A stretch of 50,062 nt of DNA from Candidatus Gottesmanbacteria bacterium (GTDB lineage: Bacteria; Patescibacteriota; Microgenomatia; UBA10105; UBA927), in assembly GCA_963701185.1 (NCBI GenBank), contig OY969569.1, positions 615,486-665,547 of the forward strand, written 5' to 3'. Positions 23,127 through 23,920 of the stretch are shown here, piece by piece; position 1 is the stretch's first letter, and every line of letters begins with the position of its first letter. The notes beneath the pieces were generated by a model, which ran no database searches, was not told the DNA's origin, and saw only the letters and a program-made list of their open reading frames with translations. The translations under genes were made by a program, and so were the position numbers.

Positions 23127-23162
23127 TTGACATCACCAGTGAAACGCAGAATGATGGAAACA
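23127..23162 (+). promoter_or_regulatory. Putative sigma70 promoter placed for a leaderless start at 23162
   Basis: TTGACA(23127)-N17-AATGAT-N6-ATG; a back-to-back TTGACA lies on the minus strand at 23086-23091. Confidence 0.5.
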
Positions 23163-23920
23163 TGCCCGCCATCCTTATTCTGCTGTTGTTTTTTGCGGTA
23201 CCGGTATTCGCGCAAGGGACATCTTCCGGTATTGCAATATCGCTGCCGGTTGCCGGAACCAACATCGTCAACGGATCCGTTATTTCCTCCACTGCCACCG
23301 GGTATGCACTCACGACGACCGCCTTTGACCCGAACACCTACGGGGTTGTGACGGATACTCCTGCGGTATCGTTCCGGGACAAAACGTCCGGCACCGGCAT
23401 GTATGCGGTTATTACCAACGGAAAAACGGCGGTACGCGTGTCCGGTAAAAACGGAGGGATCAAACCCGGTGATTTTTTGGCAAGCTCTGATATTCCGGGA
23501 GTGGCCGTCAAAACCGAGGGCACGGGGTTCGTTATCGGAACGGCGCTTGAGACCGTTACGTTTACACAGTCAGGCGATATCAAACTCGTTCTTACCTCCA
23601 TTTCCCCGCGCTACAACACCAATGTATCCGCCGGCGGACGCGGCATTAATTTATTAAAAAACGTTAAATCCGCCGCGTCGTCCCCGTTTTTGACGCCGTT
23701 AACGTCCATGCGGTACCTTTTGGCCGTTATCGTGACGGCGATTGCGTTCGGCGGATCGTTCTGGTACTTCGGACGATTTGCCAAAACCGGCATCGAAGCG
23801 CTCGGAAGGAATCCTCTGGCCGCCAAAATTATTGCCGCGGGAGTTGCCTTGAATACATTGTTGACGGTTGCCATTTTGGCAGGGGGATTATTTCTGGCAT
23901 ACTTAATACTGGTGTTATAG
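23162..23920 (+). CDS. Signal-peptide membrane protein with a C-terminal ATP synthase subunit-c-like helical hairpin
   Basis: [18 protein letters not shown] signal peptide; beta-rich domain ([27 protein letters not shown]); TM, then GIEALGRNP, then TM. The ORF track starts at 23108. Confidence 0.7.

What the first reader, a model, noticed from the sequence alone, without database searches (positions are those of the whole stretch)
23162..23920. Subunit-c-like hairpin without the ion-binding carboxylate, fused to an exported beta-domain
Seen: signal peptide, about 170-aa soluble domain, [13 protein letters not shown]; first gene of the F1 operon. The second helix ([23 protein letters not shown]) has no Asp or Glu. 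Known: the c-subunit loop (R-Q/N-P) docks gamma/epsilon, and the essential carboxylate lies about 20 residues after the Arg. The soluble motif VS..NG.IKPGD.L.SS..PG.A.K resembles, from memory, motifs seen in phage fibre and S74-associated proteins. Inference: a rotor ring that transmits F1 torque to an extracellular domain rather than pumping ions.
Basis: partly seen in the sequence, partly recalled or inferred. Interest (0 to 1): 0.78.

Follow-up and report, generated by a model that had tools for sequence, protein, structure and literature searches.

The report
Ion-blind F-ATPase with exported rotor subunit
In a large group of ultra-small (CPR) bacteria the "ATP synthase" operon has no ion-channel gene nearby, and its membrane-ring subunit has lost the ion-binding acid and gained an outward-facing domain, so the machine probably burns ATP to do mechanical work at the cell surface rather than make ATP or pump ions.

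Summary
Window 23162-23920 (+) encodes a 252-aa protein: signal peptide, ~140-aa exported beta-domain, conserved juxtamembrane linker, and a C-terminal two-helix hairpin with an invariant G-R-N-P loop.

The hairpin is a diverged F-type c subunit. This rests on fold, weak profile hits and, above all, position: it sits in the atpE slot.
- In most relatives the operon is X, b-like, delta, alpha, gamma, beta, epsilon.
- In the window's sublineage b and delta are gone.

None of 267 family members has Asp/Glu at or near the c-subunit carboxylate position. No subunit-a gene lies within 10 kb in 89 related loci or anywhere in the 50-kb window. Epsilon lacks its inhibitory C-terminal helices. F1 catalytic motifs are intact.

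The exported domain has the fold of phage cement proteins and tail-spike C-terminal chaperone domains (Peptidase_G2 type, not S74).

The family spans at least 233 species genomes of Microgenomates/WWE3. It usually sits beside a divergently transcribed giant fibre-like surface protein.

Best reading: an ion-uncoupled, ATP-hydrolysing F-type motor whose c-derived ring projects domains outside the cell. Rotation and the output are inferred, not shown.

Only one 2013 paragraph (Kantor et al.) mentions the odd "putative c subunit".

The parts
23011..23040 (+). Promoter-like site (TCGACA-18-TATAAT, 11/12) in the divergent intergenic region upstream of X
   Evidence: This is a consensus match only.
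23162..23920 (+). Gene X: exported c-subunit-derived protein (252 aa from ATG 23162; alternative starts at 23108 and 23120)
23162..23218 (+). Signal peptide (aa 1-19, cleavage after VFA). Some orthologues replace it with a cytoplasmic MerR-like HTH plus a TM anchor.
   Evidence: Sequence; alignment
23219..23626 (+). Exported beta-domain (aa ~20-155), with the fold of phage cement proteins and Peptidase_G2-type tail-spike C-terminal chaperone domains
23627..23713 (+). Low-confidence linker, then the conserved juxtamembrane segment ([15 protein letters not shown]; P179, L180 and R184 invariant)
23714..23776 (+). Hairpin helix 1 (aa ~185-205). It is rich in aromatics (GSFWYFG) and lacks the c-subunit GxGxGxG motif.
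23786..23815 (+). Cytoplasmic loop GIEALGRNP (aa 210-218). G-R-N-P is invariant in 267 of 267 and corresponds to the c-subunit R-Q/N-P loop.
23828..23917 (+). Hairpin helix 2 (aa 223-252). It has no Asp/Glu. V236 (nt 23867-23869) occupies the carboxylate position. Conserved polar pair: N231 (R+15) and T235 (R+19).
23928..24001 (.). ~75-nt double-hairpin repeat element between X and the GIY-YIG gene
24011..24352 (+). GIY-YIG nuclease-family gene in the slot where relatives have b-like and delta genes. It is also present in the nearest relative.
24355..25794 (+). F1 alpha-like subunit (P-loop GDRTTGKT and Arg-finger SVTRVG present)
25791..26636 (+). F1 gamma-like subunit
26633..28015 (+). F1 beta-like subunit (GGAGVGKT and GER present)
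28109..28363 (+). Epsilon, 84 aa: beta-sandwich only, no C-terminal inhibitory helices
28360..28392 (+). Terminator-like hairpin (14-bp stem plus T run) ending the operon
15872..23030 (-). Divergently transcribed giant surface-protein gene: N-terminal MerR-type HTH, one TM, then a ~2200-aa ectodomain ending in Peptidase_S74 and H_lectin. It is read in two overlapping frames here. It is the conserved neighbour of the operon.

Best explanation
SHOWN. Gene X is a diverged descendant of the F-type ATP synthase c subunit. It kept the two-helix hairpin and the cytoplasmic R-N-P loop. It lost the membrane-buried carboxylate that carries H+/Na+. It acquired an N-terminal export signal and a ~140-aa extracellular beta-domain.

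X belongs to a conserved operon (X, [b-like, delta], alpha, gamma, beta, epsilon) of Microgenomates/WWE3-type CPR bacteria. That operon has no subunit-a gene nearby, a truncated epsilon and catalytically intact alpha/beta.

INFERRED. With neither an ion-binding site nor an a-subunit channel, the complex cannot couple to an ion gradient, so it works only as an ATPase. F1 hydrolyses ATP and turns gamma-epsilon. These dock on the conserved R-N-P loops of an X oligomer (a ring). Where present, b/delta hold alpha3beta3 to the membrane. The work is delivered outside the membrane through the crown of exported domains.

Those domains are homologous to trimer-forming phage cement proteins and tail-spike chaperone modules, and to a module in the neighbouring giant fibre-like surface proteins. 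The most likely target is therefore the assembly, anchoring or movement of those surface fibres. This would make the system a functional analogue of the mycoplasma F1-like X0 ATPases.
For: Identity as a c derivative:
- The AF2 hairpin superposes on solved c subunits with TM 0.77-0.87 and rmsd 1.3-2.0 A. The best sequence and fold hits include Chloroflexus c.
- A hairpin profile searched against PDB gives c subunits as the top hit (9itj_H, E 0.003), in register with R-N/Q-P.
- hhalign against nine c subunits gives P 4e-4 in the same register.
- JGI's COG pipeline already names some members 'subunit c'.
- X occupies the atpE position directly before b-like and delta (OSCP hits from 1.8e-8 to 2e-3), then alpha-gamma-beta-epsilon.

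Loss of ion coupling:
- 0 of 267 members have D/E deeper than R+11, and R+20 is always aliphatic or aromatic.
- No a-like ORF was found within 10 kb in 89 loci or anywhere in the 50-kb window. This used ORF/TM inspection, Pfam on candidates, phmmer and a motif scan.
- Kantor et al. 2013 found no recognisable a/b/c in a closed WWE3 genome.

ATPase direction and a live enzyme:
- Epsilon has a median of 88 aa, so it lacks the inhibitory C-terminal domain.
- P-loop, catalytic Glu and Arg-finger motifs are retained in most alpha/beta.
- All five genes are conserved in at least 233 species genomes.

Loop function retained: G-R-N-P is 100% invariant although the ion site is gone.

Surface output:
- The protein has a signal peptide or an HTH+TM anchor, and the positive-inside loop places the domain outside.
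- The ectodomain fold matches phage cement proteins and the phi29 gp12 C-terminal domain.
- The same domain occurs in neighbouring giant proteins in 7 loci, and one of these passes the Pfam Peptidase_G2 threshold.
- A divergent giant single-TM protein lies upstream in most loci.

Precedent: mycoplasma Type 2/3 F1-like X0 clusters include a protein with a signal peptide, a large ectodomain and two C-terminal TMs, and they serve surface machinery (PMC3369863, PMC12994834).
Against: - Ring formation and gamma/epsilon docking were not tested.
- Sequence-only similarity to c is weak. Pfam ATP-synt_C reaches at best 16 bits against a cut-off of 24. MscS chains score close to the weaker c hits. hhalign probability is only 35%.
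- Helix 1 has bulky aromatics where c subunits have GxGxGxG, so ring packing may differ or be absent.
- In the window's own sublineage, and in some Woese- and Collierbacteria, b and delta are missing. No known stator remains there, and rotation could not do external work unless another protein holds alpha3beta3.
- Some orthologues carry an extra N-terminal TM and a cytoplasmic HTH domain on every subunit, which would crowd a rotor.
- Absence of subunit a is shown only for 10-kb flanks and from one literature statement, not for whole genomes. My a-subunit query came from memory and had no positive control.
- Neighbourhood with giant proteins may partly reflect inherited synteny. In the window the giant genes lack the X-like domain.
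Confidence: 0.5

Rival explanations
1. X is a static membrane anchor or adaptor, not a rotating ring. The hairpin tethers F1, through gamma/epsilon or directly, to the membrane. The exported domain acts as a membrane-bound assembly platform or chaperone for trimeric fibre-like surface proteins. ATP hydrolysis gates or powers that assembly without sustained rotation.
For: - The ectodomain belongs to the fold class of intramolecular chaperone domains of tail spikes (phi29 gp12 C-terminus, Peptidase_G2) and of cement proteins.
- Neighbouring giant proteins carry S74 or G2 chaperone modules.
- Helix 1 lacks the glycine packing motif.
- b/delta are lost in several lineages, including the window's.
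- The C-terminal half of helix 2 ([11 protein letters not shown]) is unusually conserved for a lipid-facing helix.
Against: - The invariant R-N-P loop and the retained gamma, epsilon, b and delta (in most lineages) make up the full set of rotary parts.
- It is hard to see why both a central and a peripheral stalk would be kept for a non-rotary role.
- There is no precedent for F1 acting without rotation.
Confidence: 0.2
2. It is still an ion-translocating F-ATPase or ATP synthase. It would use a non-canonical ion site (the conserved N at R+15 and T at R+19) and a subunit a that is encoded elsewhere or is too diverged to recognise.
For: - The polar pair N (89%; otherwise H/S) and T (79%) is conserved one turn from the classical site.
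- atp genes are split between loci in some bacteria (general knowledge).
- Whole genomes were not searched.
- Reviews assume CPR ATPases are functional pumps.
Against: - Every characterised F/V/A rotor ring uses a carboxylate. None is present in 267 of 267 members.
- b and delta stay in the operon while a alone would have moved.
- No a-like ORF was found in 1.31 Mb around 89 loci plus the window.
- A closed WWE3 genome showed no recognisable a.
- A ~15-kDa exported domain on each ring subunit has no role in ion transport.
Confidence: 0.12
3. The F-type machine has been converted into a protein-export or secretion device, analogous to T3SS FliH/I/J. The X ring would serve as the conduit or gate, and the giant neighbours would be the cargo.
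For: - The b-like protein gives weak FliH hits (E 0.003-0.006).
- The operon is conserved next to giant surface proteins.
- Published theory holds that rotary ATPases derive from translocases (Mulkidjanian et al. 2007, from general knowledge, not checked here).
Against: - The giant proteins have an N-terminal cytoplasmic domain plus a TM, typical of Sec/YidC-inserted anchors.
- c-ring lumens are narrow and lipid-filled.
- No gate proteins are present.
- The FliH hits are far below threshold.
Confidence: 0.08
4. It is a decaying, functionless remnant of the ancestral ATP synthase.
For: - Parts are lost progressively: a, then the carboxylate, then the epsilon C-terminal domain, then b/delta in some lineages.
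- All four F1 subunits score below NCBIfam equivalog cut-offs.
Against: - Reading frames are intact and motifs invariant across at least 233 species and 605 50%-identity clusters.
- Catalytic residues are kept.
- A new, conserved exported domain has been gained.
- CPR genomes are highly streamlined and would not keep 4-5 kb of dead genes.
Confidence: 0.05

Closest known systems
F-type ATP synthase subunit c (AtpE, Pfam PF00137), e.g. Chloroflexus aurantiacus 9itj/9itt, spinach 2w5j, Bacillus PS3 6n2d
   Same: - Two-helix membrane hairpin.
- Cytoplasmic loop with invariant Arg-Asn/Gln-Pro.
- N and C termini on the outer face.
- Gene position directly upstream of atpF(b)-atpH(delta)-atpA-atpG-atpD-atpC.
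- Fold superposition with TM 0.77-0.87.
   Different: - No Asp/Glu at the ion-binding position (V/I/L instead).
- Helix 1 lacks GxGxGxG.
- It carries a signal peptide and a ~140-aa exported beta-domain.
- It scores below the Pfam threshold.
- No subunit a partner is found nearby.
Mycoplasma F1-like X0 ATPases: Type 2 (M. mobile gliding G1-ATPase) and Type 3 (MIB-MIP-associated) (PMC3369863, PMC11864180, PMC12994834)
   Same: - Alpha-, beta-, gamma- and epsilon-like genes without a canonical Fo.
- One partner ('Protein 5': MSC_0620 / MMCAP2_0577 / MMOB1650) has a signal peptide, a large ectodomain and two C-terminal TM helices joined by a short loop.
- They are thought to hydrolyse ATP to serve cell-surface machinery.
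- They occur in genome-reduced, host-dependent bacteria.
   Different: - The CPR operon keeps the canonical F-type gene order and, in most lineages, b and delta.
- It lacks the 12-TM 'Protein 1' and the small cytoplasmic 'Protein 2'.
- No sequence similarity to the mycoplasma families was detected for X.
- Mycoplasmas also keep a normal F1Fo. In a closed WWE3 genome this appears to be the only ATPase operon.
- A c-like R-N-P loop has not been reported for the mycoplasma protein.
Phage capsid cement/decoration proteins (Pam3 gp6, TW1 gp56, BB1, XM1 gp53; Pfam PF22758, PF09956, PF23982) and the phi29 gp12 C-terminal auto-chaperone / Peptidase_G2 IMC domain (PF11962; PDB 3gqh, 3suc)
   Same: Same beta-domain fold as the ectodomain of X: Foldseek PDB E 5.5e-5 to 9e-3 and BFVD down to 1.4e-11. 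Pfam hits are just below threshold in some family members. These domains form trimers.
   Different: - X's domain is tethered to a membrane hairpin in a cellular ATPase operon.
- No capsid or tail context.
- No evidence of autoproteolysis.
- The window protein itself gives no Pfam hit.
Rotor rings with partly missing carboxylates (Acetobacterium woodii c1, eukaryotic and V-type proteolipids). From general knowledge, not checked here.
   Same: They show that hairpins without a carboxylate can sit in a rotating ring.
   Different: Those rings always retain some carboxylate-bearing hairpins and a subunit a. Here every copy lacks it.

Membership tests
F-type ATP synthase subunit c (PF00137) | Two transmembrane helices forming a hairpin | tested here: met
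   AF2 helices 179-216 and 218-251. Foldseek TM 0.77-0.87 and rmsd 1.3-2.0 A to solved c subunits.
F-type ATP synthase subunit c (PF00137) | Conserved cytoplasmic loop R-Q/N-P | tested here: met
   G-R-N-P is invariant in 267 of 267. It aligns in register with RQP/RNP of c subunits.
F-type ATP synthase subunit c (PF00137) | Ion-binding Asp/Glu in the middle of helix 2 (about R+20) | tested here: not met
   The position is V236 in the window. Family-wide it is I/V/L/A/F, and no D/E occurs beyond R+11 in 267 sequences.
F-type ATP synthase subunit c (PF00137) | Glycine-rich GxGxGxG packing motif in helix 1 | tested here: not met
   In the hhalign register only two Gly coincide. The stretch reads GSFWYFG, with conserved aromatics.
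F-type ATP synthase subunit c (PF00137) | Score above the curated family threshold | tested here: not met
   No hit for the window protein. The best family member reaches 16 bits against a cut-off of 24, and only 2 of 28 members hit at E<1.
F-type ATP synthase subunit c (PF00137) | Encoded in the atp operon next to b, delta and alpha | tested here: met
   X is followed by a b-like gene, delta (OSCP) and alpha-gamma-beta-epsilon in most loci, and directly by alpha in 15.
F-type ATP synthase subunit c (PF00137) | Forms a homo-oligomeric ring that binds gamma/epsilon and faces subunit a | not testable with these tools
No subunit a was found within 10 kb in 89 loci or anywhere in the 50-kb window.
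Mycoplasma-type F1-like X0 ATPase | Alpha/beta/gamma/epsilon homologues clustered without a canonical Fo a and c | tested here: met
   However, b and delta are retained in most CPR lineages.
Mycoplasma-type F1-like X0 ATPase | Partner protein with a signal peptide, an ectodomain and two C-terminal TM helices ('Protein 5') | tested here: inconclusive
   The architecture is the same (versus PMC3369863 and PMC12994834). No sequence similarity was detected in NCBIfam, and the mycoplasma sequences were not compared directly.
Mycoplasma-type F1-like X0 ATPase | 12-TM 'Protein 1' and small cytoplasmic 'Protein 2' in the cluster | tested here: not met
   No such ORFs were seen beside the operon in the loci examined.
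Phage cement protein / Peptidase_G2 IMC-type beta-domain | Fold and profile similarity of the exported domain | tested here: met
   - Foldseek PDB: 8hdt_G 5.5e-5, 5wk1_K 1.4e-3, 3gqh_A 9e-3.
- BFVD: 1.4e-11.
- Phage_cement reaches 26.5 bits against a cut-off of 27 in two members.
- The homologous stretch in a neighbouring giant protein passes Peptidase_G2 (27.8 against 25).
Phage cement protein / Peptidase_G2 IMC-type beta-domain | Trimerisation and/or autoproteolytic release | not testable with these tools
   No oligomer modelling was possible. The candidate Ser...Lys pair is not conserved, since the Lys is often Arg.

The most novel reading that the evidence does not exclude
The complex is an ATP-driven rotary motor whose rotor reaches outside the cell. 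F1 spins a ring of X subunits, and their extracellular crown engages the homologous or chaperone-type modules of the adjacent giant fibre proteins. This would turn, wind or tension them for host attachment, surface motility or fibre assembly in episymbiotic CPR bacteria. It would be the first F-type motor with an extracellular mechanical output, and a new kind of bacterial surface machine.
Probability: 0.2. Interest if true: 0.92.

Novelty: new variant of a known kind. Interest (0 to 1): 0.78.

Why it matters
Reviews still state that nearly all Patescibacteria keep an F-type ATP synthase despite having no respiratory chain, and they treat this as a puzzle (PMC11665869, PMC13293708).

For one of the largest CPR groups (Microgenomates plus WWE3; at least 233 species genomes here) the sequence evidence points away from an ion-coupled synthase. 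There is no carboxylate in the ring subunit, no subunit a nearby, and no inhibitory epsilon domain. Metabolic reconstructions that count these genes as 'complex V' would then be wrong for these lineages.

The system is also a natural experiment in re-using a rotary motor. The c subunit has been turned into an exported-domain carrier, and lineages range from a full stator to none. It parallels the still-unexplained mycoplasma F1-like X0 ATPases. A five- to seven-gene operon of this size is a tractable target for cryo-EM and single-molecule work.

Tried and rejected
- Pfam and NCBIfam on the window protein gave nothing.
- phmmer of the whole protein against PDB gave only a chance HtrA3 hit.
- PHROGs gave nothing for the window protein and two weak head-protein hits for one relative.
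- Public sequencing runs holding the locus, for expression evidence: none listed.
- Idea that alpha lacks the delta-binding N-terminus specifically where delta is lost: rejected. Alpha is ~13 residues shorter than E. coli alpha in both delta-containing and delta-less lineages.
- Idea of a Ser-Lys autoproteolytic dyad in the ectodomain: rejected, because the Lys is often Arg.
- A second 'alpha' hit in L032 turned out to be Rho.
- Multi-TM ORFs near X in a few loci turned out to be prepilin peptidase, a histidine kinase, a glycosyltransferase and similar, not subunit a.
- Supplementary tables of Mahendrarajah et al. 2023 were not informative for these lineages.
- Nine literature searches found no description of this protein beyond one paragraph in Kantor et al. 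2013.
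Full report
**1. What is at the coordinates**

Window 23108-23920 (+) is one ORF. An ATG at 23120 gives the 266-aa form stored in the protein collection. The sequence reads as follows:
- a signal peptide ([17 protein letters not shown]|QG);
- a region of ~140 aa rich in beta-strands;
- a conserved juxtamembrane segment ([16 protein letters not shown]);
- a hydrophobic helix;
- the loop GIEALGRNP;
- a second hydrophobic helix that runs to the C terminus.

An AlphaFold2 model built on 28 homologues (mean pLDDT 83) gives a beta-domain at residues ~22-152 and a helical hairpin at 179-216/218-251. 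The loop carries R, K, R, K, so the positive-inside rule puts it in the cytoplasm and the beta-domain outside. This is the topology of a c subunit with an N-terminal extension.

Downstream lie a GIY-YIG gene, then alpha, gamma, beta and epsilon homologues. A promoter-like site precedes X and a strong terminator-like hairpin follows epsilon.

**2. Is the hairpin a c subunit?**

Sequence evidence alone is weak.
- No Pfam hit for the window protein.
- ATP-synt_C reaches only 16 bits (cut-off 24) in the best relative.
- A profile of the hairpin searched against all PDB sequences puts a c subunit first (Chloroflexus 9itj_H, E 0.003) and four more c subunits at E 0.14-0.57. MscS chains score in the same weak range.

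All these alignments share one register: R-N-P on R-Q/N-P.

Fold evidence is consistent with this. The hairpin superposes on solved c subunits with target-normalised TM 0.77-0.87 and rmsd 1.3-2.0 A.

Gene position is the decisive evidence. I fetched 80 loci from species-representative genomes (233 had a relative) and nine more from metagenomes. Wherever the contig extends far enough, X is followed by alpha-gamma-beta-epsilon: 65 loci show the clean full order, and nearly all the others are cut by a contig end or have a split gene. L065 is the one exception, with no F1 genes within 10 kb.

In about three quarters of the loci two genes lie between X and alpha.
- The first is a ~230-aa protein with one N-terminal TM helix and a long coiled coil. 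It has b-subunit architecture and weak FliH hits.
- The second is a ~165-aa soluble protein that matches Pfam OSCP/delta (E from 1.8e-8 to 2e-3; two reach the gathering score).

The operon is therefore X-b-delta-alpha-gamma-beta-epsilon, the canonical atpE-F-H-A-G-D-C order with X in the atpE slot. JGI's automatic COG annotation already calls a few members 'subunit c'. I conclude with high confidence (~0.9) that X descends from subunit c.

**3. What has been lost**

In the alignment to Chloroflexus c, the ion-binding Glu falls on the residue after the conserved Thr of X. That residue is V236 in the window, 20 residues after the loop Arg. Across 267 family members:
- this position is I/V/L/A/F;
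- no Asp or Glu occurs anywhere deeper than R+11;
- the only conserved polar residues in helix 2 are Asn at R+15 (89%; otherwise His/Ser) and Thr at R+19 (79%);
- G-R-N-P is invariant.

Helix 1 lacks the GxGxGxG motif and has conserved aromatics instead.

No subunit-a-like gene was found within 10 kb in the related loci or anywhere in the window.
- No multi-TM ORF of the right kind lies upstream.
- The few multi-TM or nearby candidates are a prepilin peptidase, a histidine kinase, a glycosyltransferase and one 8-TM ORF with no Pfam hit.
- phmmer with E. coli subunit a and a scan for its Arg motif found nothing in 1.31 Mb. That query came from memory and had no positive control.

Independently, Kantor et al. 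[quoted passage not shown] The three adjacent genes they mention correspond to X, the b-like gene and delta.

Epsilon has a median of 88 aa family-wide, so it is the beta-sandwich without the C-terminal helices that inhibit hydrolysis in bacterial F-ATPases.

Alpha and beta keep the P-loops, the catalytic GER and the Arg finger in most genomes. All four F1 subunits nonetheless score below NCBIfam's equivalog cut-offs, so they are diverged.

**4. What has been gained**

The exported domain gives no Pfam hit in the window protein. Relatives give near-threshold hits to Phage_cement (26.5 against 27 bits), XM1_gp53_minor_capsid, Phage_cement_2 and Peptidase_G2.
- Foldseek on the model finds phage cement/decoration proteins (Pam3 gp6 at 5.5e-5, Borrelia BB1, TW1, XM1, Sf11, T1). 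It also finds the C-terminal auto-chaperone of the phi29 gp12 tail spike (3gqh, 3suc).
- In BFVD the best matches (down to 1.4e-11) are C-terminal parts of long phage tail or pre-neck appendage proteins.
- An HMM of the ectodomain also hits an internal domain of giant surface proteins encoded next to the operon in seven loci (E 1e-24 to 6e-10). In one of these the stretch passes Pfam's Peptidase_G2 IMC threshold.

In a subgroup of orthologues (390-590 aa), the signal peptide is replaced by a cytoplasmic MerR/HTH_17-like domain plus a TM anchor. These sit in the same operon slot. The same N-terminal module heads the giant neighbours.

**5. Context and distribution**

The family has 972 clusters at 90% identity and 605 representatives at 50% identity, with the hairpin always C-terminal. 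The named genomes are Shapiro-, Levy-, Collier-, Woese-, Roizman- and Amesbacteria, 'Microgenomates' and WWE3.

In most loci the gene upstream of X is a divergently transcribed giant protein (about 400 to over 3,200 aa as read; many ORFs are cut by the locus end) with a single TM. In at least 38 of 79 loci a small HMM recognises its N-terminal MerR-type HTH within 1.5 kb of X, and more follow if an intervening Fic gene is allowed.

In the window this neighbour is 15872-23030 (-), ending in Peptidase_S74 and H_lectin.

There is a gradient of reduction in the stator.
- Most lineages have a full b and delta.
- Two Shapirobacteria loci have a short b (155-185 aa) and only the C-terminal 70-75 aa of delta.
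- 15 loci have none, nor does the window.

The window and its nearest relative (73% identity) have a GIY-YIG gene in that slot.

**6. How it most likely works**

Shown:
- X is a c-derived hairpin without an ion site;
- no a gene is nearby;
- F1 is intact;
- epsilon is truncated;
- the added domain is exported;
- giant fibre-like surface proteins are conserved neighbours.

Inferred: the complex cannot use or build an ion gradient and acts as an ATPase. The invariance of the R-N-P loop, which in F-ATPases is the docking surface for gamma and epsilon, argues that X still couples to the central stalk after the ion site was lost. Retention of b and delta in most lineages argues that relative rotation between stator and an X oligomer is still the working principle.

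The only place left for the work to go is the outer face, through the crown of beta-domains. These belong to a trimer-forming fold used to nucleate or cement phage fibres and capsids, and they recur in the adjacent giant proteins. I therefore favour an ATP-driven mechanical device acting on surface fibres (assembly, anchoring, movement). This is analogous to the mycoplasma F1-like X0 ATPases, whose clusters also contain a protein with a signal peptide, an ectodomain and two C-terminal TMs, and which serve gliding legs or the MIB-MIP system (PMC3369863, PMC12994834, PMC11864180).

Confidence in this mechanistic reading is about 0.5. The main weaknesses are these:
- ring formation is untested;
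- the glycine packing motif is missing;
- lineages without b/delta, including the window's, have no known stator;
- subunit a is shown absent only locally.

Rivals are a static anchor/chaperone platform (0.2), a still ion-coupled enzyme with an unrecognised partner (0.12), an export device (0.08) and a dead relic (0.05).

**7. Novelty**

The library search found only the 2013 paragraph. Later reviews treat CPR ATPases as ordinary. No paper in the library reports any of the following:
- the missing carboxylate;
- the exported cement/IMC-like domain;
- the HTH-anchored variants;
- the b/delta gradient;
- the conserved giant-protein neighbourhood.

It is best classed as a new variant of a known kind: a re-purposed F-type ATPase comparable in concept to F1-like X0. 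Its membrane subunit architecture has no described equivalent.

Noticed in passing
window 10472-15875 (-) and 15872-23030 (-): Two tandem giant surface-protein genes. Each is read as a 235-240-aa MerR-HTH+TM ORF overlapping a 1646- or 2226-aa ORF by exactly 245 nt in another frame. Their 5' regions are 99.4% identical over 778 nt and share the same frame switch (near ...AAQSSAIIF / RVTAGNILYG...). Relatives have a single ORF. This could be a systematic assembly error, a gene-converted pseudogene pair, or programmed frameshifting.
   Followed up: partly
window 23928-24001, 22765-22850, 15625-15710; partial copies near 24313-24340, ~30600 and 34138: A ~75-nt double-hairpin repeat (GTCATTCCCGCGTAGGCGGGAATC ... 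GATTCCCGGTCAAGCCGGAAATGAC). It occurs in intergenic DNA and, in frame, inside the HTH-TM linker of both giant genes, where it is translated as ...SSPRRRGS...GFPVKPGMTK. It looks like a MITE/REP-like element tolerated in coding sequence.
   Followed up: partly
window 24011-24352 (+); L088 3967-4317; L089 1222-1572: A small GIY-YIG nuclease-family gene sits between X and alpha, abutting or overlapping the alpha start. It is there both in the window and in the nearest relative (X 73% identical), in the slot where other lineages have b and delta. It is flanked by the repeat element in the window.
   Followed up: partly
L044 2616-8750 (-), L074 16610-20761 (-), L088 12507-13909 (+), P0157/P0181/P0194/P0211/P0234/P0260: Many CPR giant surface proteins, and a subgroup of X orthologues, begin with a cytoplasmic DNA-binding-like module before their single TM helix. 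The module is a MerR/HTH_17 domain, or Phage_int_SAM_1 in some. What an HTH does at the inner end of a surface protein is unexplained.
   Followed up: partly
L013-L016, L018, L020, L023, L026, L028, L044, L046, L054, L056, L058, L059, L067, L084 (upstream of X): In Levybacteria-type loci a ~312-aa Fic+HTH_DeoR gene lies between the giant gene and X, on the same strand as X. Pfam confirmed it for L013 and L016; the other loci are assigned by size and position.
   Followed up: partly
L065 2656-3678: One WWE3 genome has a 340-aa X homologue with no F1 genes within 10 kb downstream. It is either a second copy or a split arrangement.
   Followed up: no
window 28360-29808 (-), 30417-32768 (-): Downstream of the operon lie a GT5 glycogen-synthase-like gene and two GT4 glycosyltransferases. 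A GT5 gene also follows the operon in L002/L003.
   Followed up: no
window 36157-36229 (-), 36839-36912 (+): tRNA-Arg(CCT) and tRNA-Pro(CGG). These are the only Rfam/ARAGORN hits in the window.
   Followed up: yes
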